From Ignavibacteriae bacterium HGW-Ignavibacteriae-1 (GTDB taxonomy: Bacteria; Bacteroidota; Ignavibacteria; Kapaibacteriales; UBA2268): a DNA stretch of 64,000 bases. This document shows positions 4,638 to 48,620 of this stretch, piece by piece. A program made the position numbers and the translations under genes. Where the stretch lies: positions 27,165 to 91,164 of the forward strand of contig PGYU01000007.1 in assembly GCA_002839825.1 (NCBI GenBank). Reading direction: 5' to 3'. The notes below the pieces were generated by a model, which was not told where the DNA came from, did no database searches, and was given only the letters and a program-made list of their open reading frames with translations. Each line of letters opens with the position of its first letter. Position 1 is the stretch's first letter.

Positions 4638-6554
4638 ATGCGCAATTTCCTACTAATTGTACTTTTGATTATCGTTTTCGGTAATATACATTTATCGGCG
4701 CAAGTGCCTAACCAAATCAGTTGGCAAGGTGTATTGACTGACTCTCAGGGTCAAGCTTTAGACGGCACATACAACCTAACGACTAAACTCTTTAACCAAT
4801 CCGTTGGTGGCGATGCTCTTTGGATAGAACTGCATAATTCTAAGCAAATTGAAGATGGTCAGGTGAATCTAATTCTCGGGAGTATAGAAAATTTGAACTT
4901 GCAATTTAATCAACCATACTGGCTCGAAATAACTGTGGGCGCCGGGACACCCTTGAGCAGAATTCAGCTTACTTCCGTACCCTATTCCTTATATTCGGCA
5001 AATTCAAATCCTGTTATAATTAATGATTCATTAGTTTTGAAAGACTCCTTAGGTGTGACGCGAATGGTATTCAATCCAAACACAGGAACTTTCAGCATGA
5101 TGGATAATGATACAGTTTGGTATAGTATGTCGGTAAATTCGCCTGTCAAAATAACTGAAAAAATTGCAAATGATAATACATTTGAAAGATATATTGACGG
5201 ACCTGGACTGACTGTAACTCGGGTTGTAAGACCTGACGGTACAATAGAAAGTGAATCAATTTCAGAAACATCTTCAGATGGATTGACTCATGAATATTTA
5301 TCTAAAATATATGATTCAGAAGGTAGATTGATATCTAGTACTTTTATTTTCATGTATTATGATGGAGTTGGTTTTAAGCTTAAGGAAGAAATTAATAAAA
5401 CTTTCGACCCAGAATCCGAAGAAGTAATATCTGAAACATCAACAAATGAAAATGTGACTAAGGATGAACTAGTTAGCAAAACAGAGCGTTTGAATGGTGT
5501 TATCATAAGAACTATTGAAAATGCAGACGGAAAAATTGAAACGTTGACTTATAATCAAGTTGGTGCGGTACAAACTCATATGATTAGTTCAAATAATGAA
5601 AATAAAACTGAAATTATCAGCGGGACGCAAAGTACAATCGTAGAACAAACGCCGATAGGACTGTTTATTTCTAACCCGGAAAGTGATTACTCGTGTGGTT
5701 TTACTATGGGAGCATTTGGAGGTTCGTATCCATCACCAATTTGTAGCTTAAGTGTTTCAACTCCAAATGGAAATTGGACTCCGATATCTATTAATGACCA
5801 AGGTGGCACGTCAGGTTGTAGAATACATATCAATGAGTTTCTGACTGTCAACAAAACAGCAAATTTTCTGGCAAACACATCGTTTTCGAGCAATCTTACT
5901 TTATTTGCCAACCTAACAATGAGTTCTGTATCCGGTACGGCTACGCTAAAAAATACAACTTGTTCAGGATTAACTGTTAATGGACCTACAGCTTTAAATG
6001 GTGCAGCCACATGTCAAGGTCTTACTGCTACCCAGGATATTACAACTTCAGCAACAGTAAACTGTGATGATTTTGATGCATCCGGGAACGGTGAGTTTGG
6101 AGGTAATGTTCAAATAGCCGGGGATTTAGATGTTACAGGTCTAAAGAAATTCAAGATTGACCACCCCGATGACCCGCTTAACAAATCTCTGTCTCATGTT
6201 TGTATCGAATCAAACGAAGCATTAAACCAATATTCAGGAAATGTTGTGACTGACGCAAGCGGCTATGCTGTTGTGACTTTACCCGATTACGTCGAAAAAA
6301 TTAACATTGATTTCCGCTTTCAATTGACTGTAATTGGCGATTTTGCTCAAGCAATTATCTCCAAAAAAATTCAGAATAATCAATTTGAAATCAGAACTGA
6401 CAAAGCAAACATGGAAGTTAGTTGGCTGATTACTGCCAAACGCAACGATTCATACGCCAAGAACAATCCTTTCCAGGCAGTGAGTGAAAAGATCGGTGAT
6501 GATAAAGGCAAATTACTTTATAACCCGAGTAAGTTTTCTAAGCTAGGAGAATAA
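4638..6554 (+). CDS. Large secreted surface protein whose N-terminal ~110-aa domain is paralogous to the tail-fibre-domain protein at 29569 (cassette 1, gene A).
   Basis: The ORF-track start at 4581 is TTG. The first ATG at 4638 follows GGGAG and gives the signal peptide MRNFLLIVLLIIVFGNIHLSAQ. The motif ISWQGVL..G..L.GT..LT.KL...GG.A.W.E.H...G.VNL.LGS...YWLEITVG.GTPL.RI.L.SVPY is shared with the 29569 protein. Confidence 0.6.
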   Translation: MRNFLLIVLLIIVFGNIHLSAQVPNQISWQGVLTDSQGQALDGTYNLTTKLFNQSVGGDALWIELHNSKQIEDGQVNLILGSIENLNLQFNQPYWLEITVGAGTPLSRIQLTSVPYSLYSANSNPVIINDSLVLKDSLGVTRMVFNPNTGTFSMMDNDTVWYSMSVNSPVKITEKIANDNTFERYIDGPGLTVTRVVRPDGTIESESISETSSDGLTHEYLSKIYDSEGRLISSTFIFMYYDGVGFKLKEEINKTFDPESEEVISETSTNENVTKDELVSKTERLNGVIIRTIENADGKIETLTYNQVGAVQTHMISSNNENKTEIISGTQSTIVEQTPIGLFISNPESDYSCGFTMGAFGGSYPSPICSLSVSTPNGNWTPISINDQGGTSGCRIHINEFLTVNKTANFLANTSFSSNLTLFANLTMSSVSGTATLKNTTCSGLTVNGPTALNGAATCQGLTATQDITTSATVNCDDFDASGNGEFGGNVQIAGDLDVTGLKKFKIDHPDDPLNKSLSHVCIESNEALNQYSGNVVTDASGYAVVTLPDYVEKINIDFRFQLTVIGDFAQAIISKKIQNNQFEIRTDKANMEVSWLITAKRNDSYAKNNPFQAVSEKIGDDKGKLLYNPSKFSKLGE

Positions 6555-6555
6555 A

Positions 6556-7269
6556 ATGAAAACTCTATTTATTCTAATTGTATTATTTTCATCATTTTTG
6601 ATGCTACATAGCCAAGATTATATAATTAAAAAGCATGTTTTCGGTTCAAGTGCACAAACGGCATCGAATGCGGAACATGTATTTAAAAGTACTGTCGGGC
6701 AATCAACTACCGGAAATGCTGAAAATGATGACATAAAGTTATTTTCAGGCTTCTGGAAATTAGAATCCCAAGCTATAAGTTTACAGTCCATCAATCTAAT
6801 TGCAGGTTGGAACATGATTTCCACCTATCTAACACCGACTGATACATCAATCGAAATGATATTTGCTCAAATTGTGGACGATATCGTAATTGTCAAAAAC
6901 AATATAGGTCAAATCTATTATCCGGAATTTAGTATTAACGATATTGGCAATTGGAGTATTTACGAAGGCTACCAAGTTTATACAAGCCAATCCAATACGC
7001 TGGAAATATCGGGACAAGTAATCTCGCCGCAAGATACGCCTATTAATTTAGGAATCGGCTGGAGTATTGTGCCGTATTTGCGTTCAGGACCGATGAATAT
7101 CGAAGATGCTATGCAATCTTTGACTGATGATGAAGCACTCGTCATTGCTAAGAATAATCTGGGGCAAATATATTACCCGGCTTTCGGTATCAACGACATC
7201 GGGAATATGCTCGCGGGACAAGGCTATCAGATTTATTTGATTAAAACGGGAACTCTGACATACCCGTAA
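6556..7269 (+). CDS. Small secreted partner protein (cassette 1, gene B) with an internally duplicated C-terminal module shared with 32651 and 34761.
   Basis: Begins 2 nt after the upstream gene and has a signal peptide. The C-terminal module carries two ~45-aa repeats: IVKNNIGQIYYPEFSINDIGNW...GYQVY and IAKNNLGQIYYPAFGINDIGNM...GYQIY. Confidence 0.6.
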   Translation: MKTLFILIVLFSSFLMLHSQDYIIKKHVFGSSAQTASNAEHVFKSTVGQSTTGNAENDDIKLFSGFWKLESQAISLQSINLIAGWNMISTYLTPTDTSIEMIFAQIVDDIVIVKNNIGQIYYPEFSINDIGNWSIYEGYQVYTSQSNTLEISGQVISPQDTPINLGIGWSIVPYLRSGPMNIEDAMQSLTDDEALVIAKNNLGQIYYPAFGINDIGNMLAGQGYQIYLIKTGTLTYP

Positions 7270-24952: not shown

Positions 24953-26554
24953 TTACTCAATTACAATTCTTTGCAAAGTCTGCTCTCCGTAATGCGTTTG
25001 GGCTACGAGCAAATACATTCCGGGCGTTAATTTATTCAAATTGAAATTTTCGCGAAACTCGCCTTTGCGAATTAGAGTTTCCGGCGATAGCGTCATTAAT
25101 AATTTCCCTGTAAGGTCATGAATCGAAAGTTTCACTTTTCTATCCTCTTTCAGTTGGAAATTGACAGAAACCGGACCGTTTGTAGGATTTGGGTACACTA
25201 ACATGTTTTCGATTGCTCCACTACACGAGCGCCAAACGTCCATTATAGTTTCCGAGCCTGTTTCGGGAGCCGCTTTGCAAATATCTTCGCTGCTGTTAAT
25301 CGCTGCAATCTCGGCTTGGAGACGCGATTTGATGTTTTCCGGCACAACTTTAAGAAGTTCATCCGTGGGTTCAAACCAGAAGATTAAGTCTGCGCCGCCA
25401 TCCGGAACATCGAATCGGACAGGAATTAATTTGTTGACAGTCAATTCTGTCATCATTTTGATGCGTTTATTAATATGAGGAAAATGCTCTATGGGAATCG
25501 TAATTTTCTCATTTAATTTAGTATTGGGCCACATAAATAGGATTTGGTCTATTTTGGTAGTATCTAAGGGATCAAATTCGCTATCTATACGTTTAATTTT
25601 GATTTTTTGTTCTACTTTTCGGTCATTTTCAGAATCATCAAAATCAATTTGAATTCTCTTAGATTTGAAACGTAATGAATCTACATCACTATTATTCATG
25701 GAATTATTCAATAAGAAAGATAATTTATTCCTATCCACTTTGAATTTACCAGAATTATCTGTATCACTAGATTGTGATAAGAATGAATCAATTTGTGCAG
25801 GAGACAACTGATTTAAAATATCTATATCTAAAGTTGTATTTTCTTCAATTGTTTCTGTATATAGTACTTGATTCGGTTTGTTCTCGCTTCCTTCGGGATT
25901 ATTTTTATTAGTCATAAACGCTATTTTTACATTTCCATTGGCAGAAGTAATAAGCTTAGGAACTAATTTATGGTCAGTATCAGAAGACTCCGAATTAGAA
26001 AGAAACTGTGTTTTCATATTCGGAGCTATCGAAACTTTCATATTACCACTTGTAACTTCATAATTATTCGTTTTCGAGTTGAATTTAATATTATATAAAT
26101 CTAAATAATCATTCGGCAAAGTAATGGTATTTATTCCGCTTATTTTGTCTGATGAGTTGGGCACATCGACTTTATCATCTACATTGTAAGTATTCATAGC
26201 GACATCATCTGGCTTAAAATTGCGTTTATTGATGTCTTTATCGCCATCGTCTGGTAGTATTTCTTTGACATTGGGGGTGGATTTTGCTGTTGATATTTCA
26301 ACTGAAGTTTGCTTATTTTCGGGCACTTGTTTATCAGAATCAATTACATTAAATAGTACCAATCCTGATATTACAAGAGCCGCCATTGAACTTAAAATAG
26401 TCATTTTATTTGCTCCGTAATTAAAAATACCTGTACTCACCGGATTTACGGTACTTGCGCTAATGAGTTCGCGAACCTCATTATCCTTCAAAACCGGCTC
26501 CAGATTTCGAGCTTTATCAAAAATATTATCAATATTTGTATAATTATTATTCAT
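24953..26554 (-). CDS. Anti-sigma-like single-pass membrane protein with a C-terminal T9SS sorting domain (paralogue of 40572-42200).
   Basis: A ~50-aa N-terminal cytoplasmic segment precedes the TM helix KMTILSSMAALVISGLVLFNV. A large extracytoplasmic region follows. The C-terminus is VYPNPTNGPVSVNF...GMYLLVAQTHYGEQTLQRIVIE. It starts 2 nt after the sigma gene. Confidence 0.5.
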   Translation of the reverse strand: MNNNYTNIDNIFDKARNLEPVLKDNEVRELISASTVNPVSTGIFNYGANKMTILSSMAALVISGLVLFNVIDSDKQVPENKQTSVEISTAKSTPNVKEILPDDGDKDINKRNFKPDDVAMNTYNVDDKVDVPNSSDKISGINTITLPNDYLDLYNIKFNSKTNNYEVTSGNMKVSIAPNMKTQFLSNSESSDTDHKLVPKLITSANGNVKIAFMTNKNNPEGSENKPNQVLYTETIEENTTLDIDILNQLSPAQIDSFLSQSSDTDNSGKFKVDRNKLSFLLNNSMNNSDVDSLRFKSKRIQIDFDDSENDRKVEQKIKIKRIDSEFDPLDTTKIDQILFMWPNTKLNEKITIPIEHFPHINKRIKMMTELTVNKLIPVRFDVPDGGADLIFWFEPTDELLKVVPENIKSRLQAEIAAINSSEDICKAAPETGSETIMDVWRSCSGAIENMLVYPNPTNGPVSVNFQLKEDRKVKLSIHDLTGKLLMTLSPETLIRKGEFRENFNLNKLTPGMYLLVAQTHYGEQTLQRIVIE

Positions 26555-26555
26555 A

Positions 26556-27164
26556 TTATATACCTATTTTCATTAATTTATCATTATTTTTTGAAAATTC
26601 ACTTCGTTCTGCAGAGTAATTATTGTTCATTTTATGTGTAATTTTATCATTCATCAATTCGCTTAATTTCTCCCGACCTCTTTTCAATCTGGATTTTACT
26701 CCCGAAATTGTTCCGCCTTGAATCTCTTTGATTTCTTCGATTGAAAATCCCGAAATTTCGTACAAAATGATTGCTTCTTTCATTTTTTCAGGTAATTTGT
26801 CCAAAGTGTCGTAAAGCACTTTTATATCGTGAGAAATATCGGGCATCGGGTCGTGAGCTATCAAATTATCCAAAGCCATATCATCTAATTCCTCGAAATT
26901 CTTCATTTTTGACTTACGCTTACGATGCAATCTGACCGCTATGGTAAAGATATAACTGCTGAAAGCCTCTTTGTTCTTAATCTTGTCAAAGTTTTCGTAC
27001 GCAGCCAACACGGTATCGCTAACCAAGTCACGCGCATTCTCGGTATTGCGAGTGATTGCTCTCGCAAAACCCGAGAGTTTGAATTTCACTCGGTCATAAT
27101 AAATCATGAACTCATTTTGTTTACTATCTTTCAAATCAATTTCCAAATTTTGTTCTCTACTCAT
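26556..27164 (-). CDS. ECF-type RNA polymerase sigma-70 family factor.
   Basis: Region 2 (DLVSDTVLAAYENF) and region 4 (EAIILYEISGFSIEEIKEIQGGTISGVKSRLKRGREKL) are present. An alternative start MIYYDRV at 27107 is possible. Confidence 0.8.
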   Translation of the reverse strand: MSREQNLEIDLKDSKQNEFMIYYDRVKFKLSGFARAITRNTENARDLVSDTVLAAYENFDKIKNKEAFSSYIFTIAVRLHRKRKSKMKNFEELDDMALDNLIAHDPMPDISHDIKVLYDTLDKLPEKMKEAIILYEISGFSIEEIKEIQGGTISGVKSRLKRGREKLSELMNDKITHKMNNNYSAERSEFSKNNDKLMKIGI

Positions 27165-29234: not shown

Positions 29235-29332
29235 CTGAGTGAAATCATAAGCCCTTGTAATATACAATGTTACGAGGGCTTGTTTTTTGTTTCCAACATA
29301 TTACCAAAAGAATGCCAAACCGTCATTTTTGT

Positions 29333-29568: not shown

Positions 29569-32500
29569 ATGAAACAATGTACTTTCCTTGCAGCAATACT
29601 TTTTTGTATTACGAGCTCTTTATATTCTCAAATTCCCCAAACCATTAGCTGGCAGGGAATTTTGCAGGATGCTGATTCAAAAAATCTTTCAGGCACCTTT
29701 AGCCTGACTGTCAAGTTATACGATGTCGCTTCAGGCGGCACCGCTATTTGGAACGAAACACACAGCAGCGTAGTTATCGCTGACGGACTTGTCAATCTTA
29801 CTCTTGGAAGCGTTACACCTTTTAGTATTAATTTCGGCGATGAATACTGGCTCGAAATCACCGTAGGAACCGGCACTCCGCTTCCAAGGATTAAACTCAG
29901 TTCTGTGCCGTATGCAATGCATTCAAAGACGGCTGAATCTGCAAATGAAACTGACCCGACATGGAGTGGAAATGCCAATACAACGGGTACTATAAGTAGA
30001 AGCGGTAAAGTTGGTATTGGAACATCATCCCCAACGGCTTTACTGCATATTTTTGATTCAGAAACTACTGCGGGAGATGTTCTATTTGTGGGGAATATTG
30101 ATTGGACAACGCCTAGGAATCCTCCCACTTCCGGTGCAGGTACACGCATGATGTGGTATCCGGATAAAGCGGCAATTAGAGCAGGCTATATTTCGGGAAA
30201 TCACTGGGATATGAGCAATATTGGGATGTCATCAGTTGCTATGGGTTACAACACTATTGCAAGCGATCACGGAGCCACGGCTTTTGGTTCAGGAACTGAA
30301 GCTTCTGGATATGGTTCTACTGCTTTTGGAATTTTGACTACAGCACCGGGGAACGTCGCAACTGCTTTCGGAAATAATACGTCTTCAACAGGAATTGCTA
30401 CCACCGCAACGGGACACAGCACTACAGCATCGGGTGATTATTCATTTAGCATGGGATATGGAACCCAAGCCTTGGGTCAATTTTCATTATCAATGGGAAA
30501 AGAAACTTCGGCTCTATCAGGCTATGAAGTAGTTTTAGGGTCATATAATACTGAATACGTGCCCGAAAATGCATTCGGTTGGAGTGAAAATGACCGCTTA
30601 TTTGTAATAGGAAACGGCGTGGGTGATTTTGCTCCAAGCAATGCAATGACCGTGTTAAAAAACGGCAAGGTGGGAATTGGAACCGACAACCCACAATATC
30701 CGCTTCACGTGAATACTCCGGGAGTATTTACCGGAATACAGATGACCACTGATGCAGCGGGTACCACCATGAGTGATGGCTTGATTATTGGCATGCAGTA
30801 CCAGTCAAATGAACCTTCCAATCGTTATGCAACAGTACTGAACAAGGAAAATTCACCATTGCTTTTAGGAACAAATAATAATTATCAGGGCGACTTGACC
30901 ATCCTACCAGGTGGGAATATTGGGATTGGCATTAATCCGCCCACTACGCGGCTCGACATCAACGGTCAAGTTCGTATTCGTGGTGGCAGTCCGGGCGCAG
31001 GAAAAGTGTTGACAAGTAGTGCTAATGGCACTGCTACTTGGCAAACTAAAAGTTTAGAATTGCCATTTTCTTCAACAATATCAAGCAGTGGAACGCTTTT
31101 CTATATTAAGAATAATGAATATTTAGGTTCAGGAATTTATGGCTACGGTGTATTTGGTGTAACCGGCGAAGCTCATGATGGCGGTATTGGAGTAGGTGGA
31201 TACGGTGGATTAGGAGTAGAAGGTGTGTCAAAATCTGCAGGAGGGGTTGGAGTTTATGGACGAGTTCAAATTTCAGGAACAGCAATCAAGGGTAAGGTAG
31301 ATAATCCCAATGATTTTTCAGGATACTTTTTGGGTGGAAAATTTTATACTTCAAGTCAGGTTGGAATAGGCACAGAAAGTCCCTCGGCTCTTCTGCATGT
31401 TCATGGAACTGGTTATAGTGGAGGTAATGTTGTTTTTACGGGCGAATATTTAGATTCGTATATTAGCCAAGCACCCGTTGAGGGCTCGGGTACGCGCATG
31501 ATGTGGTACCCAAATAAGGGTTCATTCCGAGCGGGACGTGTAACAAGCACGCAATGGAATAAAAGTAATATGGGAGATTATTCCACAGCATTTGGATACG
31601 ACACTAAGGCATCCGGATATGGCTCTATTGCTTTAGGATACTCATCTACTGCATCTAACACTGCTGCATCGGCAATCGGATTTAATACTATTGCCTCCGG
31701 TAATGTTTCCACTGCAATTGGTTATTCCGCCACAGCTTCAGGATATGCTTCCACTGCAATTGGTTATTACGCCACAGCTTCAGGGTTTGCTTCCACTGGA
31801 ATGGGGTATAACACTACCGCGAAATCAGGATATGAAACTGTAGTCGGTAGTTGGAATACGGATTACACTCCTGTTTCAACATCAGGTTGGAATTCTAGTG
31901 ATAGACTGTTTGTAATTGGAAATGGCACTGCAAGTACATCACGTAGTAACGCCATGACAGTATTAAAGAATGGGAAAATAGGCATAGGAACAGCATCACC
32001 TAGCGAACTATTGCATATAAATAATTCTACCGGAACTGCTAAATTGCGAGTTTCATCAGCGTCCACAGCCCTATCGGAGCTTACTTTTTATAGCGGGAGC
32101 ACTTATCTTGGCGCAATAGGTAGTGACAATACAAGTAATTATTTATTTATTTATCATGGTGGAAATATTATTTTCAAAAATGGCAGAATTGGTATTCAAA
32201 CTGAAACAAATCCCACATTTGCCCTACATTTACCAAATAGTACAAGTGATGGTACCGGCAGAGGACGCGCAAATGCATGGACAACTTACAGCGATAGAAG
32301 GATTAAAACAGCCACTGAAGAAATTCAATATGGACTTAGCGAAATAATGCAACTTCAACCGGTAAAATATTTCCAACATAATTCAATATTTGACGATGGT
32401 AAATTAGTAATTTCCGATATTGGGGCAAGCGATATTGGTTTTATCGCACAAGATATTTTCAAAATAATTCCTGAAATTGTCAGCGTTCCCGATAATGAAA

Positions 32501-32637
32501 ACGCTGAACTTTGGGGGTTGAATTATGAAAAGCTCACTCCAATACTTGTAAAAGCTATTCAAGAGCAACAAATGAAAATAGACGAACTCGAGCGGAAACT
32601 CGAACTACTTTTGCAAAAATTTTCTGAAAATAAATAA
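29569..32637 (+). CDS. Tail-fibre-domain surface protein with a shared N-terminal domain, Gly/Ser/Thr-rich repeats and a C-terminal S74-type intramolecular chaperone domain (cassette 2, gene A).
   Basis: The signal peptide and N-terminal domain are paralogous to 4638-6554. Repeats include YGSTAFG and GYSATASGYASTAIGY. The C-terminus DIGFIAQDIFKIIPEIVS...LNYEKLTPILVKAIQEQQMKIDELE matches the chaperone-of-endosialidase (peptidase S74) signature. Confidence 0.75.
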   Translation: MKQCTFLAAILFCITSSLYSQIPQTISWQGILQDADSKNLSGTFSLTVKLYDVASGGTAIWNETHSSVVIADGLVNLTLGSVTPFSINFGDEYWLEITVGTGTPLPRIKLSSVPYAMHSKTAESANETDPTWSGNANTTGTISRSGKVGIGTSSPTALLHIFDSETTAGDVLFVGNIDWTTPRNPPTSGAGTRMMWYPDKAAIRAGYISGNHWDMSNIGMSSVAMGYNTIASDHGATAFGSGTEASGYGSTAFGILTTAPGNVATAFGNNTSSTGIATTATGHSTTASGDYSFSMGYGTQALGQFSLSMGKETSALSGYEVVLGSYNTEYVPENAFGWSENDRLFVIGNGVGDFAPSNAMTVLKNGKVGIGTDNPQYPLHVNTPGVFTGIQMTTDAAGTTMSDGLIIGMQYQSNEPSNRYATVLNKENSPLLLGTNNNYQGDLTILPGGNIGIGINPPTTRLDINGQVRIRGGSPGAGKVLTSSANGTATWQTKSLELPFSSTISSSGTLFYIKNNEYLGSGIYGYGVFGVTGEAHDGGIGVGGYGGLGVEGVSKSAGGVGVYGRVQISGTAIKGKVDNPNDFSGYFLGGKFYTSSQVGIGTESPSALLHVHGTGYSGGNVVFTGEYLDSYISQAPVEGSGTRMMWYPNKGSFRAGRVTSTQWNKSNMGDYSTAFGYDTKASGYGSIALGYSSTASNTAASAIGFNTIASGNVSTAIGYSATASGYASTAIGYYATASGFASTGMGYNTTAKSGYETVVGSWNTDYTPVSTSGWNSSDRLFVIGNGTASTSRSNAMTVLKNGKIGIGTASPSELLHINNSTGTAKLRVSSASTALSELTFYSGSTYLGAIGSDNTSNYLFIYHGGNIIFKNGRIGIQTETNPTFALHLPNSTSDGTGRGRANAWTTYSDRRIKTATEEIQYGLSEIMQLQPVKYFQHNSIFDDGKLVISDIGASDIGFIAQDIFKIIPEIVSVPDNENAELWGLNYEKLTPILVKAIQEQQMKIDELERKLELLLQKFSENK

Positions 32638-32650
32638 ATAGGAATTAATT

Positions 32651-33367
32651 ATGAAAATAATATTTATTGTTTTATTAATGAGCGTAATTAGTTTGCATTC
32701 ACAGACATATAAAATTAAAAATTATGTGATGGGTAGCTCTGCTGCGACTGTTTCCAATGACGATTTTAATTTTAGAAACACATTAGGACAGCCCGCAATT
32801 GGCAAAATCCAGAACGTAGATAATATTATAGGTTCGGGGTTTTGGTACACAATCGGTAAAACGGCTGATGGTATGCATATTATATATTTAAACCTCGGTT
32901 GGAATCTGATTTCCACCTATGTAGAGCCGGAAATAGCTGCACTTGAAAACATTTTTTCCGAAATTGAAGGTAGCACTGTCATCGTGAAGAATAATTCCGG
33001 GCAGATTTACTATCCCGAGTTTGATATCAATGACATTGGGAATTGGGACGTCAAGCAGGCTTATCAAGTCTATATGTCGAAGGCTGAGATGCTCACGATT
33101 CCGGGCGAGAAAGTGGTGCCTGAAACGACCGAAATAACTCTTTCGACGGGTTGGAATATGCTCGCATATCTCCGAGATAATGCATTGGATATTGAGATTG
33201 CACTTGCTTCACTCGTTGCGGATGACAAGCTCGTCATCGCAAAGGACAACATGGGCAACGTCTTCTATCCCGCTTTCGATATCAATATGATTGGCAATAT
33301 GCTCCCCGGGCAGGGCTACCAGATATATCTGATAAGCGGAGCAACGCTGACGTATCCGGAGAATTAG
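32651..33367 (+). CDS. Small secreted partner protein (cassette 2, gene B) with a shared, internally duplicated C-terminal module.
   Basis: Paralogue of 6556-7269. The C-terminal ~155 aa are ~94% identical to the C-terminus of 34761-36545. Confidence 0.6.
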   Translation: MKIIFIVLLMSVISLHSQTYKIKNYVMGSSAATVSNDDFNFRNTLGQPAIGKIQNVDNIIGSGFWYTIGKTADGMHIIYLNLGWNLISTYVEPEIAALENIFSEIEGSTVIVKNNSGQIYYPEFDINDIGNWDVKQAYQVYMSKAEMLTIPGEKVVPETTEITLSTGWNMLAYLRDNALDIEIALASLVADDKLVIAKDNMGNVFYPAFDINMIGNMLPGQGYQIYLISGATLTYPEN

Positions 33368-33698
33368 AACCCGTCAGGTGTGAGACTTAAATCGTCCCGT
33401 CAGGTGTTACACCTGACGGGAGGAATTTTATTACTACCTAATTCATACCCCGAACTCCCAGTCTTCAAGCTCAATCTAATATGCTGCTACAAAATAAAAT
33501 ATTCAGATGATTAGTTATGTATAATATTATTTTAAGTGTTAATGAGAAAATAGATTTGCATTTAATAAAATAATAGTTATATTTGCCTAAGTGTTTTGTT
33601 CATAAGTGTGAAAGTATATGTGAATTATAAATACAAGTCCGCTAAATGATTAATACACAGAGTTTTAATATATTCTTAAAAATATTGGGAGTGCTTTT

Positions 33699-34760: not shown

Positions 34761-36545
34761 ATGAGAAACATTTTACTTTATTCCTTTATTTTTCTTTCCG
34801 TTAATGTTGTTTTTGCAAATAAAATAACAAATTATGAATATTGGATTGATTACGCTTTTGCAAATAGAATTCAAAATGTAATTAACGATGCAGATTCAAA
34901 TCTAAATTTATCAGAAAGTATAGATTTAACATATTTAGTCCAAGGAATTCACACATTCAATATACGTTTTAAGGATAGTTTAAATAAATGGTCTGTTGCT
35001 CAAACAAGTTTTTTCTACAAGCCGGCTAATGATTCACTAATGGATAATTATAATTACCCAAATAATACTCTCACAGCTTATGAATATTGGGTTGATGATG
35101 ATTTTGTAAATAGAAAATATGGGGTGATAAACCCAAATACATCTCTTTTGAATATTGATTCTTTCTTCTTATTTGAGAATATAAATTCAGGAATTCATAA
35201 ATTCGTAATCAGATTCAAAGATAACTATGGAAAGTGGTCTGTTGCGCAAACAAGTTATTTCTACCATAGGGCAAATGATTCATTAATGGATAATTATAAT
35301 TATCCAAATAACACTCTAATCGCTTATGAATATTGGGTTGATGATAATTATATTGATAAAAAATATGAGACGTTAAATCCTAATACATCAATAATGAATC
35401 TTGATTCTAACTTTTTGTTGGAAAATTTAAATTCAGGAATCCACAAATTTGTAATCAGGTTCAAAGATAACTATGGCAAATGGTCTATTTCTCAAACCAG
35501 TTATTTTTATATTCCTGATAATTCTGAATTTACGGATGTCAGTTATACATCGAACAAAATTTACGGATATCGCTATTGGTTTGATAACAAGCCGGAAACA
35601 ATTTTTACATTGATATTAGATAATAAAGAAGAAACATTTTCCGAAATAATTAATTTGCAATGTCCCGAATTGGATACATTGGGATTGCACGTGCTACACA
35701 TGCAATATATGGATTCAGTTGGGAAATGGAGTGTAGCAGTATCGGATACTTTTATTTATGAAGGATTTGAGGTATCAAAACCAATATTAAAATCCCCGAC
35801 AGATAATGCAAATGTAAAAGCTGATACAATTTTAAAATGGAATATTATCCCATATATTAGCAAATATTATATTCAAATCTCAGATACAAATGATTTTTCT
35901 AATATTTTGGTGTATGATTCACTTACAAATGCAACACAATATGAAATAAATTTTATTGATTTAAAAACTTATTATTGGCGAGTTAAAGCAGAATATGAGG
36001 GCATTTATAGTGAATGGTCGGATGTTTGGGCATTTACAACTGTTGATGCTGCGCAAATTATTTCACTCAACCTTGGTTGGAATCTGATTTCCACCTATGT
36101 AGAGCCGGAATTTGCTGCACTCGAAAACATTTTCTCCGAAATTGAAGGAAGCACTGTCATCGTGAAGAATAATTCCGGGCAGATTTATTATCCTGAGTTT
36201 GATATTAATGATATCGGCGATTGGGACGTGAAGCAGGCTTATCAAGTTTATATGTCGAAGGCTGAAATGCTCACGATTCCGGGCGAGATGGTGGTGCCTG
36301 AAACGACCGAAATCACCCTCACAACGGGATGGAATATGCTTGCATATCTCCGCGATAATGCTATGGATATTGAGAATGCTCTTGCCACGCTCGTTGCGGA
36401 CGACAAACTCGTCATCGCAAAGGACAACATGGGCAACGTCTTCTATCCCGCATTTGAAATCAACATGATAGGCGACATGCTACCCGGGCAGGGCTATCAA
36501 ATATATCTGACAAGCGGAGCAACGCTGACCTATCCGGAGAATTAG
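34761..36545 (+). CDS. Multi-repeat secreted protein with four ~81-aa tandem repeats, an FN3-like domain and the shared C-terminal module.
   Basis: Repeats carry YEYWVDD...NSGIHKFVIRFKDNYGKWSVAQTSYFY. The FN3-like stretch reads YYWRVKAEYEGIYSEWSDVWAFTT. The C-terminal 160 aa match 32651-33367. Confidence 0.6.
   Translation: MRNILLYSFIFLSVNVVFANKITNYEYWIDYAFANRIQNVINDADSNLNLSESIDLTYLVQGIHTFNIRFKDSLNKWSVAQTSFFYKPANDSLMDNYNYPNNTLTAYEYWVDDDFVNRKYGVINPNTSLLNIDSFFLFENINSGIHKFVIRFKDNYGKWSVAQTSYFYHRANDSLMDNYNYPNNTLIAYEYWVDDNYIDKKYETLNPNTSIMNLDSNFLLENLNSGIHKFVIRFKDNYGKWSISQTSYFYIPDNSEFTDVSYTSNKIYGYRYWFDNKPETIFTLILDNKEETFSEIINLQCPELDTLGLHVLHMQYMDSVGKWSVAVSDTFIYEGFEVSKPILKSPTDNANVKADTILKWNIIPYISKYYIQISDTNDFSNILVYDSLTNATQYEINFIDLKTYYWRVKAEYEGIYSEWSDVWAFTTVDAAQIISLNLGWNLISTYVEPEFAALENIFSEIEGSTVIVKNNSGQIYYPEFDINDIGDWDVKQAYQVYMSKAEMLTIPGEMVVPETTEITLTTGWNMLAYLRDNAMDIENALATLVADDKLVIAKDNMGNVFYPAFEINMIGDMLPGQGYQIYLTSGATLTYPEN
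34830..35790. repeat. Tandem ~243-bp (81-aa) intragenic repeats, about four units. Units 2 and 3 are near-identical at the DNA level.
   Basis: For example, aatgattcactaatggataattataattacccaaataatactct (35027) against aatgattcattaatggataattataattatccaaataacactct (35270). Confidence 0.6.
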
Positions 36546-40571: not shown

Positions 40572-42200
40572 TTAATTGATTATTATTCGTTGCGAAACAA
40601 ATTCATTCTTATCGGATTTGAGACCAATTAAATATGTGCCTGTAGTCAAATTAATCAGATTTAGTTTTATATGATGTTCTCCGGCATTCAAATTATTGAT
40701 ATTTGATAGTCTGCCAATGAATGCGCCCTGAATATCATATATATTTATCTCAATATTTCGCACTTCAGTTGTTTTGAATTTCATTGTAATAGAACCGTTG
40801 TATACCGGATTAGGATATAAATTCTGTATTTCGATTGCACCATTGGCAAATCGGCAATAATCGTAAAATGACTCTTCTTCAATGAAATTGCACGCTTCTT
40901 CTAAGCTTAATGTGCCGGACTCTATTGATGAAATAATTTCAATTTCATTTTTCAAAGCTTTTTTGTAGCGTTCCGGTAGTGATTCGATAAATTCATCTGT
41001 AGGATAATACCACAAAACTAATTTTTCAATCAAATCATTTTTATTAAATTTGATTTCGATTGGCAAAAGCTTCGAGTAATCCATGTTTTCAATATATTTC
41101 TGACTTATTGGCGAATCATGCGAAATAAATACATATTTATGGTCAGTATTATTGTATTTAAAAGCGGCAATTATCGGAACAACTTTGCTGTAGGAATCTT
41201 TTGCCCAATTACCGAATTGTGCAATATTATTTACAAAACCTTGTAAAGCCCGCGTCTTCCAATCTTCATAAGCGACTGCATAATCCATTCCAATGTATTC
41301 ATGAACCGAGCTATGCAATATTACATTTTTCAAATTGTAATATATTTTTCCGTCAATAGTGTCTGAGGTGGTTGCCGTTCTATATGCAGTAGCATGAATT
41401 GTGGCTTTAACCAATATAGATTCATCAAGTTTATCCTTCAAATCTATCTCATGGCGGGTTTTTATGAGTAGTGTATCGCCATTTACAGGGTAATTTCGTT
41501 CAACTAATTCATAATTCGCCGGAAGATTGCTATAAGATTTATTGTTCCTCATTGGAATTGGATGCAACTGATGAAAGTATTCGATAGGATATGATACAGT
41601 ATTTTCATTCAATTGAATATTTAATTTTGCTAATTCATTTTTTGTCAGATTTAAAGTTATTAGCCCCGGTATTGGGCTTCCTTCAGCATCGGTTTGAATA
41701 GAGCCTGGTTCGAGGAAATCTATAGATGTACTTTTGTTTCCAATTGTAAATACATTTTGCGGACGTTGAAGTGCTTCGGTTCTAAATGGATTTTTAATGT
41801 AAATAGGATAGTTTGTCAATTCCTCTTGAGATATGATTTGAGTTTTTCCTTCAATATGTTTGGATTTGGTACTACTTTCGGTTAATACTGCAATTTCTGA
41901 ATTGTCAATCAAATCATGTTCTGTGTGTTCAATTTCTGACGTATGGATACTGGATTTTGAACTAATTTCAATAATTTCAAGAATATTTGAAATCTCAAAG
42001 TATTGATTCATACTTAGAAAACTAAACACTACTAAAAAAGTCAACATTGCGATACTCCCCAACAGTTCGACATTCAGTGGTGAATTATGAGCAAATTTAT
42101 TCACTGCTAAAATTGAATTCAATTCCTTATCATCTAAAGGCTCTTTAAACTGATTCATTTCCTTAGCAGCAGCAAAATATTTATTTAACTCTGTATTCAT
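40572..42200 (-). CDS. Anti-sigma-like single-pass membrane protein with a T9SS C-terminal domain (paralogue of 24953-26554).
   Basis: A 45-aa N-terminal segment precedes TM helix LLGSIAMLTFLVVFSFL. The central domain shares WYYPTDEFIESLPERYK with the paralogue's WFEPTDELLKVVPENIK. The C-terminus is LYPNPVYNGSITMKF...GTYLIGLKSDKNEFVSQRIIIN. It overlaps the sigma gene by 20 nt. Confidence 0.5.
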   Translation of the reverse strand: MNTELNKYFAAAKEMNQFKEPLDDKELNSILAVNKFAHNSPLNVELLGSIAMLTFLVVFSFLSMNQYFEISNILEIIEISSKSSIHTSEIEHTEHDLIDNSEIAVLTESSTKSKHIEGKTQIISQEELTNYPIYIKNPFRTEALQRPQNVFTIGNKSTSIDFLEPGSIQTDAEGSPIPGLITLNLTKNELAKLNIQLNENTVSYPIEYFHQLHPIPMRNNKSYSNLPANYELVERNYPVNGDTLLIKTRHEIDLKDKLDESILVKATIHATAYRTATTSDTIDGKIYYNLKNVILHSSVHEYIGMDYAVAYEDWKTRALQGFVNNIAQFGNWAKDSYSKVVPIIAAFKYNNTDHKYVFISHDSPISQKYIENMDYSKLLPIEIKFNKNDLIEKLVLWYYPTDEFIESLPERYKKALKNEIEIISSIESGTLSLEEACNFIEEESFYDYCRFANGAIEIQNLYPNPVYNGSITMKFKTTEVRNIEINIYDIQGAFIGRLSNINNLNAGEHHIKLNLINLTTGTYLIGLKSDKNEFVSQRIIIN

Positions 42201-42609
42201 CTTTCACTCCAATTAATTCAGCCAATTGCTTTTTCGCTCTGTATAATCTTGATTTAATAGTTTCTTCGCTTACATTCATAATTATACTCGCTTCCTTTCG
42301 TGAAAAGCCCTCAATTTCTGATAAAATCAGCGTTTCTCTGTAATCCGGCTTCAACTTATTCATTGCTTGTCGCAAAAATTGAATATCAATCATTACATCG
42401 GGATGCAATGAGTTGTCCATTAAATTGTCAAAATCAAAATCCTTTTCAAAGTTGGATTGAAATTTGATTGATTTGTAAAACACTCTACTTGCGATAGTAA
42501 ATACATAGCTTAAGAAAGCATCTTCACTCTTGAGTTTGGCAAATCCTAAGAAAGCCTGATAAAGAGTTTCGCTCAGTAATTCCTTTGCATCGTCGGTATT
42601 TCTAGTCAT
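42181..42609 (-). CDS. ECF-type RNA polymerase sigma-70 family factor (short).
   Basis: Region 2 (LLSETLYQAFLGFAKL) and region 4 (ETLILSEIEGFSRKEASIIMNVSEETIKSRLYRAKKQL) are present. Confidence 0.7.
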   Translation of the reverse strand: MTRNTDDAKELLSETLYQAFLGFAKLKSEDAFLSYVFTIASRVFYKSIKFQSNFEKDFDFDNLMDNSLHPDVMIDIQFLRQAMNKLKPDYRETLILSEIEGFSRKEASIIMNVSEETIKSRLYRAKKQLAELIGVKDEYRVK

Positions 42610-43969: not shown

Positions 43970-46801
43970 ATGAACATAATAAGTCATTTTAAAGATAGAG
44001 GAAAAGCAGTCACCATAACTTATAGCTTGGTTTTTGCTTTAATTGCCTACTTAGCATTTACGACACTCAACTCTGCGGTACAAGTAACAATGCCCGAAGA
44101 GAACGACGAATGCATGATGTGCCATGACGACAAAGATTTGAAAGGTACGCGCAAAGGCAAGAATATTTCGATGTATGTCAATCCCAATCACGTTTTGGGT
44201 TCAGTTCACGCTGAAGTAAAATGCGTTGATTGCCATACAGATTTAGCAGGAGTGGAATTGCCTCACGAGGACGATTTGAAGCCCGCAACTTGTGGTAAAT
44301 GCCACACTAAGCAGCAAAAGGATTTCGACATGAGCTTTCATGGTGTAGCACTCAAAAAAGGCGACCCTTTGGCGCCTAATTGTCAGTACTGCCACGGTAG
44401 CCACCAAATTGTTGATGCAAAGCACGAAAAATCGCCCGTGCAACCCCTCAAAATACCATTCATGTGTGGGAAATGCCACCAAGAAGGTGCACCCGTACAA
44501 ATGTCTAGGAATATTCCCCAATCGCATATCTTGGAAAATTATTCTGAGAGTATTCATGGTGAAGGTCTTTTCAAGCGCGGTTTAGTTGTGACTGCTACTT
44601 GCGTTTCGTGTCATACTGCACATGCGATTTTGCCACATACTGATAAGAGGTCTTCGATTGCACGTAATAATATTGCCGCAACGTGCTCTCAATGTCATGC
44701 GAGAATTGAAGATGTGCACAAAAAAATCATTGATGGCGAATTATGGGAGAAAGAAGCTCATACGCTGCCTGCTTGTGTTGATTGCCACCAACCTCATAAA
44801 GTTCGGAAATCGTTTTATGATGTAGGTTTAGCAAAAGCCGAGTGTTTGAATTGTCACCAAGATAAAAATATTAAAGCAAGCAAAGGCGGTCGCTCTCTGC
44901 ATGTTGATATAAGCAAATTAGACCATTCGGTACATTCAGACCTTGCTTGCAGTAAATGCCATATTGAGGTTCGCCCATCTAAAATTCGCTCTTGCGAAAC
45001 AATTACAACAAAAGTTAATTGTGGAAGTTGCCATGACAAAGTAAACGATAATTATATGCAAAGCAGCCATGGGAAGCTATTCTTAAGTGGTGAAAGTGAT
45101 GCTCCAACTTGTGTAACATGCCACAATGACCACGAAGTGCTCCCGAAGATTAATCCAATGTCTAAAACTTTTGCTATAAATATTCCTAACCTATGCTCAG
45201 AGTGTCACCAAGACGGACATCAAGCAGCGGTCAGGATGGAAGACAAGGTACAACATCTTACAGAAACTTATTCGGAGAGTATTCACGGGCAGGGCTTGAA
45301 ATCCGGCAGACTCAAAGTAACGGCGAATTGTTCGGATTGTCACTCTGCGCATATGGAAGCAAATCATGAAAATCCCGTATCCTCGACTCATAAGGACAAT
45401 ATTAGCACCACTTGTGGCAAGTGCCATTGGGGAATTCAGACTCAATTCGATAAAAGTATCCACTCGCCAATGGTATCAAAATCGGAAGATGACTTGCCAA
45501 ATTGTAACACATGCCATGTGGCTCACTCAGTAGTTGACCCATCAAAAGATGAGTTCAGATTGTCCATGTTGAATACCTGCGGCAAATGCCATGAAAAAAT
45601 TACTCACTTATATTTCGATACATATCACGGGAAGGCGTCACTTCTTGGTTCGGGCAAAGCTGCTAAATGCCAAGATTGCCATAGCGCCCATATGATATTA
45701 CCAACATCACACGCAAATTCGACACTTTCACGAGACAACATTGTCGAAACATGTGCAAAATGCCATCCCGCAGCTAATAAAGGCTTTACAAGGTATTTAA
45801 CTCATGCAACTCATCACGACCCGGAAAAATACCCACTGCTTTTCATCACATTTTGGGGTATGACAATACTTCTTCTCGGCACATTTCTGGTTTCATGGTT
45901 GCACACATTATTGTGGTTGCCAAAGTCATTAAAGATGCGAAAAGAGATGATGGTACTCAAAGCCGCTGGGCATTCTGGCAAACGCGTTAGGAGATTTACA
46001 CCATTGAACCGAATTTTGCACGTCACAATGATATTATGCTTCCTGACTCTTGCCGCCACAGGGATGATGCTCAAATTCTCATATGCTTGGTGGGCACAAT
46101 TCAGCGTTAAGTTGATTGGCGGAGTGGAAGTTACAGGCTTCTTCCATCGCTTTGCTGCAATAGTATTGTTCGGTGTATTCTTTACTCATATTTTCGATTT
46201 AATATTCAACAAACGTAAAGAATTTAGTTCATGGAAAGAAATGCTTTTGGGTTCGGATTCTCTTTTGCCAAATAAAAAAGATTGGGAAGATTTTATCGGC
46301 TCAATGAAATGGTTCTTCAACAAAGGACCGCGCCCGCAATACGGAAGATGGACTTATTGGGAAAAATTCGACTATTTTGCAGTATTTTGGGGGATTTTCG
46401 TAATTGGCTCAACCGGGCTTATGCTCTGGATACCCGAGTTTTTCACCAAATTTATGTCCGGACAATTCATTAACGTTGCTACTATTATTCATAGTGACGA
46501 GGCATTGCTTGCAGCAGGATTCATTTTCACCATACATTTCTTCAATACGCACTTCCGTCCGGAAAAATTCCCTATGGATACCGTAATTTTCTCAGGAAGT
46601 TATGATGTAGAAGAATTCAAATTCGACAGACCCGCCGAATATGAAAAATTGGTCGAAGAAGGGAAATTGGAAGAACTTTACGTTGACGCACCGACTCCGA
46701 CACAAAAGAAAGTTCATTCAATCTTTGGATGGGCAGCTTTATTAACCGGATTATTAATAGTCTTTTTAATAATTTATTCGATTATTAGCATTAACTTTTA
46801 A
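43970..46801 (+). CDS. Membrane-anchored 19-heme c-type cytochrome fused to a C-terminal FdnI/HydC-like diheme cytochrome b domain (CbcL-like).
   Basis: I count 19 CxxCH motifs between residues 48 and 600. The C-terminal 330 aa hold 4-5 TM helices with [25 protein letters not shown] and [18 protein letters not shown], matching the Ni/Fe-hydrogenase/formate-dehydrogenase b-type cytochrome family. Confidence 0.8.
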
Positions 46802-46812
46802 ATGTAAGTATA

Positions 46813-46945
46813 TCAATTCATCCGATGACTCCAAGTCATCGGATGAATATTGTAGATTAAAATATTGTAGGGACAGCAACAGCGTTCTGTCCAAAATATC
46901 GTCATACTTAGCTGCATGCGAAGAATCAAGTTTTCAAAAAAACAT
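46813..46945. repeat. ~130-bp intergenic repeat element, copy A (copy B at 55284-55412). It opens with a 14-bp-stem hairpin.
   Basis: Copy A reads caATTCATCCGATGACTccaAGTCATCGGATGAATAt...GGACAGCAACAGCGTTCTGTCC...GAAGAATCAAGTTTTCA, and copy B is nearly identical. Confidence 0.65.
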
Positions 46946-47378
46946 TCCGTCAGGTCTACAACTGACGGACTGAAATGAAGAACATGTTTACCGTCAGTTA
47001 TAACAACTGACGGGACAATAAAACGAATGATATTGTATAAATTGTTGCAGTGAATAAGGTAGGTGACGTTTGGGTGATAAAACTTGGAGAGACTTCTGTT
47101 TTGCAGTTCTCAAATGTTCATCATATAGTGTTTTCCATATCTCAAGCACTTTTTAACTAATTTTAAGGACGTTATTAGTATTTACCCATAAATCAGAAAA
47201 TAGTATCAAAGAAATTATTAATTTTTAGAAATATAGTACAAACTAAAAATAAATGTTGAAATTTAATTCAATTTGTTTATCTTTGTTTGTTGACTTTTTG
47301 GATGTTTATATATAGTTATATATATATGTTGTTTTTTAGATATAAATAATCTTACAATAATATTCTGATAAGGTAAAT

Positions 47379-48545: not shown

Positions 48546-48620
48546 ACGTATTTGAAATAAAATGTTTACGTATTATCAAGAGAAACAAATTGATTAAACA
48601 GTAAAATAAGGACATTTAAA

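What the first reader, a model, noticed from the sequence alone, without database searches (positions are those of the whole stretch)
29569..33367. Duplicated two-gene cassette: fibre-like surface protein plus small partner with a novel shared C-terminal module (second copy at 4638-7269)
Genes 4638-6554/6556-7269 and 29569-32637/32651-33367 have the same order and near-zero spacing (2 and 14 nt). The large proteins share a ~110-aa N-terminal domain (ISWQG...YWLEITVG.GTPL.RI.L.SVPY) but diverge afterwards, and one ends in a phage tail-fibre S74 chaperone domain. The small proteins share an N-terminal motif (GSSA...GQ...G......GFW) and a C-terminal module built from two ~45-aa repeats (N.GQIYYP.F.IN.IGN....GYQ.Y). 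This looks like an adhesin or fibre paired with a dedicated partner, in the way fibre/assembly-factor or receptor-binding protein/chaperone pairs are arranged. I do not recognise the partner module as a known Por type-A CTD.
Basis: partly seen in the sequence, partly recalled or inferred. Interest (0 to 1): 0.7.

Follow-up and report, generated by a model that had tools for sequence, protein, structure and literature searches.

The report
Surface fibre genes with dedicated docking partner
Two gene pairs in this Kapabacteria-like genome each encode a phage-tail-fibre-like surface fibre and a small partner protein, and the same pairing recurs across several bacterial phyla, which makes the partner a testable candidate for the unknown element that holds such fibres on the cell.

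Summary
Both cassettes exist at the stated coordinates. The fibres share a ~105-aa N-terminal domain (49.6% identity) and the partners are 52% identical.

The fibres are remote relatives of Bdellovibrio MAT (mosaic adhesive trimer) chimeric fibres. One is the S74 type, with an SDRRIK self-cleavage motif. The other ends in a different tip.

The C-terminal module consists of two ~80-aa repeats. It has no Pfam, NCBIfam or PHROG model and no PDB fold match. It is also promiscuous: a third copy lies at 36054-36542, and there are about 13,000 cluster representatives worldwide, often just upstream of a T9SS C-terminal sorting domain (CTD).

What tracks the fibres is the partner's ~50-aa N-terminal element, which I call smallN. 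In 40 metagenome loci chosen only by the fibre N domain, 27 had a smallN gene immediately downstream. Most of those partners are only signal peptide + smallN + T9SS CTD. No smallN occurred in 822 kb of control loci.

The best explanation is that smallN docks the fibre's conserved N domain, and the rest of the partner ties it to the cell surface. This is inferred, not shown. I found no description of such a partner in the literature I searched.

The parts
29569..32637 (+). Fibre A (1022 aa). It has a Sec signal peptide, a MAT-like N domain, YadA-head-like repeats and a C-terminal S74 intramolecular chaperone/protease.
   Evidence: Pfam YadA_head (7.9e-23) and Peptidase_S74 (1.5e-8). PHROG tail-fibre families match the C-terminal part. 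PDB sequence hits to trimeric autotransporter heads (BpaC, 1.2e-9) and to a phage long tail fibre distal subunit.
29632..29943 (+). Fibre A conserved N-terminal domain (aa 22-125), a beta-sandwich.
32254..32634 (+). Fibre A S74 chaperone/protease domain. The SDRRIK motif starts at nt 32290 (S908).
   Evidence: The motif has the form SDxxxK, as defined for S74 MATs in PMC10769870.
32651..33367 (+). Partner A (238 aa): signal peptide, smallN element, then the two-repeat module.
   Evidence: It is 100% identical to CVV22_06910 of Ignavibacteriae bacterium HGW-Ignavibacteriae-1.
32705..32857 (+). Partner A smallN element (aa 19-69; Y.IK..V.GSSA..SN...F..T.GQP.IG......SGFWY). This is the proposed fibre-docking part.
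   Evidence: HMM hits. It co-occurs with the fibre N domain. It is low-confidence in the monomer AF2 model (pLDDT 37-53). No Pfam hit.
32876..33364 (+). Partner A module (aa 76-238): a tandem duplication of an ~80-aa alpha/beta unit.
4638..6554 (+). Fibre B (638 aa). It has a signal peptide, a MAT-like N domain (nt 4695-5015), a variable shaft and a non-S74 tip domain (aa 484-628).
   Evidence: There is no SDxxxK motif. The tip is 42% identical to a tip ORF in L084 (E 1.9e-37).
6556..7269 (+). Partner B (237 aa): smallN at 6616-6765 and module at 6784-7266.
   Evidence: It is identical to CVV22_06795 (P0013).
36054..36542 (+). Third copy of the module, at the C-terminus of an unrelated 594-aa repeat protein (34761-36545).
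   Evidence: It is a ~490-nt block, 88.6% nt identical to the partner A module, with sharp boundaries at the module start and at the stop codon.
29247..29283 (+). Terminator-like hairpin upstream of cassette A, marking the end of the preceding gene.
   Evidence: 17-pair stem followed by a T tract.
33395..33421 (+). Terminator-like hairpin 28 nt after the partner A stop codon. It closes a two-gene unit.
   Evidence: 12-pair stem with 8 GC pairs.

Best explanation
Each cassette encodes a secreted, probably trimeric, phage-tail-fibre-like surface fibre of the MAT (mosaic adhesive trimer) kind, together with a small partner that acts as its dock.

The fibre has a constant ~105-aa beta-sandwich N domain and a variable shaft and tip. 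Fibre A matures through its self-cleaving S74 chaperone. Fibre B has a different tip.

The partner's ~50-aa N-terminal element (smallN) is proposed to bind the fibre's constant N domain. The rest of the partner fixes the complex to the cell envelope. In most lineages that part is a T9SS C-terminal sorting domain (CTD). From established T9SS biology, a CTD leads to export and, for many cargoes, attachment to surface lipopolysaccharide. In this genome and in Chloroflexi that part is instead the two-repeat module.

Because the fibres have no CTD of their own, the partner may also take them through the T9SS.

Shown: fibre identity, the tight gene linkage, the linkage being to smallN and not to the module, and the partner architectures. 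Inferred: physical binding of smallN to the N domain, the anchoring role, and co-export.
For: Fibre identity:
- YadA_head, S74 and the SDRRIK motif.
- In all 12 N-terminal fibre sequences scanned with their signal peptide, NF053851 Bdello_MAT_N was the top NCBIfam hit among those starting in the N domain. Six of them rescanned without the signal peptide still hit it (E 5e-10 to 6.5e-4), and in two of these the two matched stretches lay in both halves of the profile.
- The S74 and non-S74 split matches the MAT description (PMC10769870).

Linkage:
- Cassette A has a 13-nt gap and is bracketed by terminator-like hairpins.
- All 7 module-retrieved loci that contain a fibre N domain also contain smallN, directly downstream.
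- Of 40 metagenome loci chosen only by the fibre N domain, 27 have a smallN ORF downstream on the same strand, and 24 of these 27 start within 140 nt of the fibre stop.
- There are 0 smallN hits in 822 kb of module-only control loci.

Partner architectures:
- smallN + CTD: 9 of 9 tested have PF18962 or a FlgD_ig-like CTD.
- smallN + module + CTD.
- smallN + module (this window, L001, L006, L009, L081).
- smallN x2 inside larger secreted proteins in Chloroflexi.

Other points:
- 0 of 10 fibres tested carry a CTD.
- One partner follows arrays of 1-5 fibres that differ in tip but share the N domain.
- smallN is not confidently folded alone.
- Across 24 distinct pairs, fibre N-domain divergence tracks smallN (Pearson 0.92, Spearman 0.51) better than it tracks the partner's own CTD (0.64, 0.35).
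Against: - There is no direct evidence of binding.
- The window's own partners lack a CTD, so how they or the fibres cross the outer membrane here is unexplained.
- 13 of 40 fibre loci show no adjacent smallN gene, and those fibres have no CTD of their own.
- The N domain is a generic beta-sandwich with no telling structural neighbour.
- The mirror-tree signal is confounded by shared ancestry and partly driven by close pairs.
- Bdellovibrio has MAT fibres but, to my knowledge, no T9SS, so the CTD-based anchor cannot be universal.
- Some metagenome loci are near-duplicates, so the effective sample is smaller than 40.
Confidence: 0.5

Rival explanations
1. The partner is purely a T9SS export adaptor. 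smallN binds the fibre in the periplasm and the CTD carries the complex through the translocon, after which the partner is released and plays no lasting anchoring role.
For: Fibres lack CTDs (0 of 10), whereas the commonest partners are little more than smallN + CTD. The linkage is tight.
Against: This does not explain partners without a CTD (this window; Chloroflexi partners ending in the module or a dockerin). Hitch-hiking through the T9SS is not an established mechanism: literature searches found nothing relevant.
Confidence: 0.15
2. The partner is an assembly factor or chaperone for the fibre, like phage tail-fibre assembly proteins.
For: The gene order (fibre followed by a small gene) resembles phage fibre/chaperone pairs. 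smallN is disordered when modelled alone.
Against: Fibre A already has an intramolecular S74 chaperone. The partner has no PHROG or Pfam chaperone match. Partners carry secretion or surface domains. The same partner type serves fibres with unrelated C-termini (S74 and non-S74), whereas fibre chaperones act on the C-terminal tip. Neither family was found in viral contigs.
Confidence: 0.12
3. The partner is an independent co-regulated surface protein, such as a second adhesin or a distal accessory subunit. Its module or cargo domains do the work, and smallN is merely a conserved leader-proximal segment.
For: The module occurs in many unrelated surface proteins. In Chloroflexi, smallN sits inside peptidases.
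Against: In the commonest form the mature partner has nothing but smallN and a CTD. smallN was never seen away from fibre genes in 822 kb of control sequence.
Confidence: 0.1
4. The adjacency is fortuitous, or reflects only a recent local duplication in this genome.
For: There are two copies in one window, and the module shows recent conversion.
Against: The two cassettes are only ~50% identical, and each has its own orthologue in other MAGs (L001 and L006). The pairing is found in Kapabacteria/Ignavibacteriota-type, Bacteroidota-type and Chloroflexi MAGs and in many metagenomes.
Confidence: 0.02

Closest known systems
Bdellovibrio bacteriovorus MAT (mosaic adhesive trimer) chimeric fibres (Caulton et al. 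2024, PMC10769870; NCBIfam NF053851 Bdello_MAT_N)
   Same: Both have a signal peptide followed by a conserved beta-rich N domain, then a long variable fibre. Both come in an S74-terminated type (SDxxxK) and a non-S74 type with swapped tips, and both have several paralogues per genome. The N domain is a remote sequence homologue.
   Different: Scores are 17-41 bits against a 60-bit cut-off, so these fibres are not members of the Bdellovibrio subfamily. The host is a Kapabacteria-like FCB bacterium, not a known predator. The shaft uses YadA-head-like repeats. No partner gene has been described for MATs, and their anchor is stated to be unknown.
Phage tail fibres and tailspikes with a C-terminal S74 intramolecular chaperone, and their adaptor or baseplate attachment
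   Same: The S74 domain and fibre-like C-terminal region match PHROG tail-fibre families and PDB 6f45. The logic is also shared: the constant N-terminus attaches and the variable C-terminus binds the target.
   Different: This is not in a prophage, since the flanking genes are housekeeping genes. Neither the N domain nor the partner was found in IMG/VR viral contigs. The attachment partner carries bacterial secretion or surface domains.
T9SS type-B CTD cargo with an adjacent PorP/SprF-like partner (e.g. SprB/SprF in Flavobacterium johnsoniae; recalled from my own knowledge, not tested here)
   Same: A large surface adhesin gene is followed immediately by a small dedicated partner gene needed for export or anchoring in T9SS-bearing bacteria.
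   Different: Here the fibre has no CTD of any type. The partner is not a PorP/SprF beta-barrel (no Pfam hit). In most lineages the partner is itself a type-A CTD cargo.
Trimeric autotransporter adhesins (YadA, BpaC, Ata)
   Same: YadA_head repeats are present, with NCBIfam hits and PDB hits, implying a trimeric head-like shaft.
   Different: There is no C-terminal YadA anchor beta-barrel. The C-terminus is an S74 chaperone. Scores are far below the family cut-offs (36.8 against 2500 bits for Ata).
Cohesin-dockerin type modular docking
   Same: Conceptually, a short conserved docking element on one protein pairs with a constant domain on a set of variable proteins.
   Different: There is no sequence or fold relationship. 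This is an analogy only.

Membership tests
MAT superfamily (Bdellovibrio chimeric fibres) | A conserved ~130-aa beta-rich domain directly after the signal peptide, homologous to Bdello_MAT_N. | tested here: met
   NF053851 was hit by all 12 N-terminal fibre sequences scanned and was the top hit among those starting in the N domain. Six of them rescanned without the signal peptide still hit it, E 5e-10 to 6.5e-4; in two of these, two matched stretches lay in profile 14-81 and 109-152. AF2 gives a confident beta-sandwich.
MAT superfamily (Bdellovibrio chimeric fibres) | Reaches the curated cut-off of NF053851 (60 bits), which would mean membership of the Bdellovibrio subfamily. | tested here: not met
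   Scores are 17.3-41.4 bits. These are remote relatives, not subfamily members.
MAT superfamily (Bdellovibrio chimeric fibres) | The C-terminus is either an S74 protease/chaperone with SDxxxK or an alternative tip domain. | tested here: met
   Fibre A has PF13884 and SDRRIK at aa 908. Fibre B has no S74 and carries a separate conserved tip.
MAT superfamily (Bdellovibrio chimeric fibres) | Intertwined trimeric beta-helix/prism shaft and surface localisation. | not testable with these tools
   Trimerisation is only inferred from the YadA_head repeats and the S74 domain. No multimer prediction was available.
T9SS type-A CTD (PF18962 / TIGR04183) | A C-terminal ~75-aa sorting domain in the partner, module or fibre. 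| tested here: not met
   None of the six cassette-region proteins gave a hit, even at E <= 0.1. As a positive control, four other window proteins pass the Pfam cut-off. Partners in other lineages do carry it.
T9SS type-B CTD (PF13585 CHU_C / TIGR04131) | A C-terminal type-B sorting domain. | tested here: not met
   No hit in the fibres or partners of the window.
Phage tail-fibre assembly / chaperone proteins | Sequence match of the partner to a phage chaperone or assembly family. | tested here: not met
   The partners gave 0 PHROG, 0 Pfam and 0 significant PDB hits. There were no relatives in viral contigs.
Trimeric autotransporter adhesin | A C-terminal YadA-type membrane anchor. | tested here: not met
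   Only head repeats were found, with no anchor domain.
Known carbohydrate-binding or other solved fold (for the module) | Structural similarity of the confident AF2 model to a solved structure. | tested here: not met

The most novel reading that the evidence does not exclude
smallN is a general 'socket' for the N domain of MAT-like fibres. By fusing this ~50-aa element to different carriers, bacteria can mount interchangeable receptor-binding fibres on different things:
- on the cell surface, through a T9SS CTD or through the un-named two-repeat module;
- in Chloroflexi, directly on secreted lytic enzymes (M23 and papain-like peptidases).

In T9SS-bearing bacteria the CTD-less trimeric fibres would leave the cell by hitch-hiking on the partner's CTD. 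This would identify the missing surface element of MAT-type fibres and would be a first case of cargo co-export by the T9SS.
Probability: 0.25. Interest if true: 0.8.

Novelty: new variant of a known kind. Interest (0 to 1): 0.62.

Why it matters
MAT-type chimeric fibres were described in 2024 as the prey-recognition adhesins of Bdellovibrio. What holds their conserved N domain on the cell was explicitly left open. Relatives of that N domain turn out to be widespread in FCB-group bacteria, Chloroflexi and other uncultured lineages (more than 700 hits). They are genetically tied to a short, previously undescribed element that is usually fused to a T9SS sorting domain. This gives a concrete candidate for fibre anchoring or export that can be tested with a pull-down or a multimer prediction.

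The work also flags two abundant unannotated families that deserve models in domain databases:
- the ~165-aa two-repeat module, with about 13,000 50%-identity clusters and no solved fold;
- the smallN element.

Tried and rejected
- **Fused-chain AF2.** I built paired alignment A3 (fibre N domain, GS linker, smallN) to test binding.
- **AFDB Foldseek.** The library was not available.
- **First N-domain homologue search.** The single-sequence search returned only 4 hits because of word-index limits. The profile search worked but was biased towards short proteins and returned no Bdellovibrio entries, so the MAT link rests on NCBIfam only.
- **Viral origin.** There were no relatives of the N domain or the partner in IMG/VR, and no PHROG hit for the partners.
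- **smallN as a diverged piece of another domain.** hhalign found no similarity to the fibre N domain or to the module.
- **Complementary distribution.** I asked whether fibres without an adjacent partner carry their own CTD. They do not, so this extra support for the in-trans CTD idea did not materialise.
- **Module as a T9SS CTD or carbohydrate-binding fold.** No sequence or structural support.
- **Literature.** Searches for T9SS hitch-hiking or for fibre partners found nothing relevant.
- **First metagenome scan.** The attempt with A2 failed for lack of a conserved stretch. It was repeated successfully with A5.
Full report
**1. The observation**

- Fibre A: 29569-32637, 1022 aa.
- Partner A: 32651-33367, 238 aa, 13 nt after fibre A.
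- Fibre B: 4638-6554, 638 aa.
- Partner B: 6556-7269, 237 aa, 1 nt after fibre B.

An all-against-all BLASTP of the window's ORFs shows that the fibres share only their first ~117 residues (49.6% identity, E 3e-31). The partners align over their whole length (52%, E 2e-81).

The last 168 residues of partner A are 91% identical to the C-terminus of a third, otherwise unrelated ORF (34761-36545, 594 aa). At the DNA level this is a ~490-nt block of 88.6% identity. It begins sharply at the start of the module and stops 3 nt after the stop codon. The modules of partners A and B are only 59% identical in DNA. The module has therefore been recently copied or converted as a unit.

The window is 100% identical at protein level to Ignavibacteriae bacterium HGW-Ignavibacteriae-1 (CVV22_06910, CVV22_06795). 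Its closest relatives are labelled Kapabacteria.

**2. What the fibres are**

Fibre A has six YadA_head repeat hits and a C-terminal Peptidase_S74 domain. The catalytic motif SDRRIK lies at residue 908. The C-terminal region matches PHROG tail-fibre families. PDB sequence hits are trimeric autotransporter heads and a phage long tail fibre. Fibre B has no Pfam or PDB hit. Its last ~145 residues form a tip domain that recurs elsewhere (42% identity to an ORF in L084).

For the shared N domain, every sequence I scanned (two from the window, ten from related loci) hit NF053851 'Bdello_MAT_N, mosaic adhesive trimer family chimeric fiber protein'. It was the top hit among those starting in the N domain. 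Six mature domains without signal peptides still hit it (E 5e-10 to 6.5e-4), and in two of them the two matched stretches lay in both halves of the profile. Scores (17-41 bits) are below the 60-bit subfamily cut-off. These are remote relatives, not members of the Bdellovibrio subfamily.

The description of MATs (PMC10769870) fits point by point:
- a signal peptide;
- a conserved ~130-aa beta-rich N domain;
- long trimeric fibres;
- an S74 subfamily with SDxxxK and a non-S74 subfamily with swapped tips.

**3. What the partner is made of**

The partner has three parts: a signal peptide, a ~50-aa element (smallN, consensus Y.IK.YV.GSSA.TVSN....F.ST.GQPAIG..........SGFWY), and a ~165-aa module (alignment A1).

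The module is a tandem duplication of an ~80-aa unit (37-48% identity, z > 20). AF2 predicts it with pLDDT > 90, whereas smallN is low-confidence (37-53).

A genome scan found it in 176 places in Bacteroidota, Ignavibacteriota/Kapabacteria, Saprospiraceae, Rhodothermaceae and Chloroflexi MAGs. So it is an abundant, unannotated, cell-surface-proximal domain and is not specific to the partner.

**4. Which part goes with the fibres**

I built HMMs for the fibre N domain, smallN and the module and ran them over all fetched loci.

- **Module-retrieved genome loci.** Of 79 loci, 7 contained a fibre N domain. All 7 had smallN in the next gene downstream. The other 72 loci (822 kb) had no smallN at all.
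- **Contexts fetched through fibre N-domain homologues.** These showed the same arrangement with different partners.
  - In L084 and L088 the gene after the fibre genes is a 173-177-aa protein consisting of signal peptide + smallN + T9SS CTD, with no module.
  - L089 has smallN plus a CTD-like tail.
  - In Chloroflexi, smallN is duplicated and embedded in larger secreted proteins downstream of arrays of 3-5 short fibres. These proteins include a papain-family peptidase (L086), an M23 peptidase with a dockerin (L090), and module-terminated proteins (L017, P0136, P0146).
- **Independent metagenome sample.** This sample was chosen only by the fibre N domain (77 loci).
  - 40 loci had at least 700 nt after the last fibre gene.
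  - 27 of them had a smallN ORF downstream on the same strand, and 24 of these started within 140 nt of the fibre stop. Two further loci had an adjacent or overlapping smallN ORF that the criteria missed: L163 on the same strand, and L107/L109 (near-duplicates) on the opposite strand.
  - Most of these partners are 169-190 aa. Nine of nine tested carry PF18962 or a FlgD_ig-like CTD.
  - None of ten fibres tested carries a CTD.
  - Some loci are near-duplicates. After removing identical pairs, 24 distinct fibre-N/smallN pairs remained.

Other relatives of the window's cassettes keep the order: two S74 fibres followed by a 238-aa partner in L081-L083 and L001, and four fibre genes followed by a partner in L009. 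Both window cassettes have their own orthologues in MAG CROMO_A_116 (L001 for A, L006 for B). The duplication of the pair as a unit is therefore old.

**5. Mechanism**

The constant elements are the fibre N domain and smallN. Everything else varies: fibre shaft and tip, and partner C-terminal part. One partner gene follows one to five fibre genes. The variable partner part is in most cases a surface-sorting or surface-proximal domain.

The simplest reading is that smallN is a docking element for the fibre N domain, and that the remainder of the partner fixes the complex to the envelope. After CTD processing, a smallN+CTD partner would leave a ~60-aa peptide on the cell surface; this step comes from established T9SS biology, not from anything tested here. 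Because the fibres lack CTDs, the partner could also carry them through the T9SS.

The low AF2 confidence of smallN in isolation fits a segment that folds on binding. Across 24 pairs, fibre N-domain identity tracks smallN identity (Pearson 0.92, Spearman 0.51; 0 of 2000 permutations reached the observed value). It tracks the partner's own CTD less well (0.64, 0.35). This is suggestive only, because shared ancestry inflates such correlations.

None of this shows binding. In this window the partners have the module in place of a CTD, although the genome uses type-A CTDs elsewhere. How fibre and partner pass the outer membrane here is open. Thirteen of 40 fibre loci have no adjacent partner by the test criteria, and those fibres have no CTD of their own.

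Cassette A looks like a bicistronic unit. Strong terminator-like hairpins lie at 29247-29283 and 33395-33421, with none comparable between the two genes.

**6. Rivals**

- **Pure export-adaptor role.** It overlaps with the main model but does not explain CTD-less partners.
It is disfavoured for several reasons. S74 fibres have their own chaperone. Partners serve fibres with unrelated tips. Partners carry surface domains. No phage chaperone family matches.
- **Independent adhesin role.** It is hard to square with the minimal smallN+CTD partners.
- **Chance adjacency.** It is excluded.

**7. Comparison and novelty**

The fibres are new, remote members of a known kind: MAT-like chimeric fibres built from phage S74 and autotransporter-head parts. 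The conserved partner, defined by smallN, matches no Pfam, NCBIfam or PHROG model. I found no description of it in the searchable literature. The MAT paper lists the surface element bound by the N domain as unidentified. The nearest functional analogies are phage fibre-adaptor attachment and the SprB/SprF-type cargo-partner pairs of the T9SS; the latter is from my own knowledge and was not tested here.

I rate this a new variant of a known kind, with moderate to high interest. It turns an explicit open question into a simple binding or multimer-prediction experiment, and it exposes two large unannotated families.

Noticed in passing
window 34761-36545 (module at 36054-36542): A 594-aa secreted protein carries a third copy of the module. 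A ~490-nt block is 88.6% nt identical to the partner A module, with sharp boundaries at the module start and at the stop codon. This indicates recent domain-level gene conversion or shuffling between genes 2.7 kb apart.
   Followed up: partly
window 34761-36050: The N-terminal part of the 594-aa protein is made of ~95-aa tandem units (YEYWVDD...GIHKFVIRFKDNYGKWS..QTSYFY). The same unit precedes the module in P0008. No Pfam family matches it.
   Followed up: no
window 26556-27164 / 24953-26554 and 42181-42609 / 40572-42200 (- strand): This is a second duplicated two-gene pair in the window. A small protein (40% identity between copies; it looks like an ECF sigma factor by eye, not tested) is followed by a ~535-aa protein ending in a T9SS Por_Secre_tail domain (31% identity between copies).
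   Followed up: partly
L081 10000-16717 (- strand): Next to the fibre-partner cassette of a related MAG lie two tandem copies of another large-plus-small pair. Each consists of a ~1031-aa Glug/Beta_helix protein followed by a 162-aa protein with an IPTL-CTERM sorting domain. This may be a second type of surface fibre with a dedicated small partner.
   Followed up: no
L084 7024-7974; L088 7792-8334: The non-S74 tip domain (42% identical to fibre B aa 484-628) is encoded as a separate ORF without an N domain, between an N-domain ORF and the partner. This could be a split fibre, a frameshift or a two-chain fibre.
   Followed up: no
L086 8352-12125; L090 7519-10071; L017 7410-8672: In Chloroflexi MAGs the smallN element is duplicated and sits inside large secreted proteins directly after arrays of 2-5 short fibre genes. 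The proteins are a papain-family peptidase, an M23 peptidase with a dockerin, and a module-terminated protein.
   Followed up: partly
window 43970-55270: This is a cluster of large paralogous proteins (43970-46801, 47379-48545 and 51681-53111 share 22-27% identity). Their sequences are CxxCH-rich by eye, suggesting a multihaem cytochrome locus. It is unrelated to the finding.
   Followed up: no
P0042, P0081, P0126, P0038; L015 6900-8729: A further conserved ~130-aa domain without a Pfam model (…GDEIAV…G.G…G.A.ITVWGD…EGA..GE.L.LK.W…) lies between the module and the T9SS CTD. In the 609-aa partners it also lies between smallN and the module.
   Followed up: no
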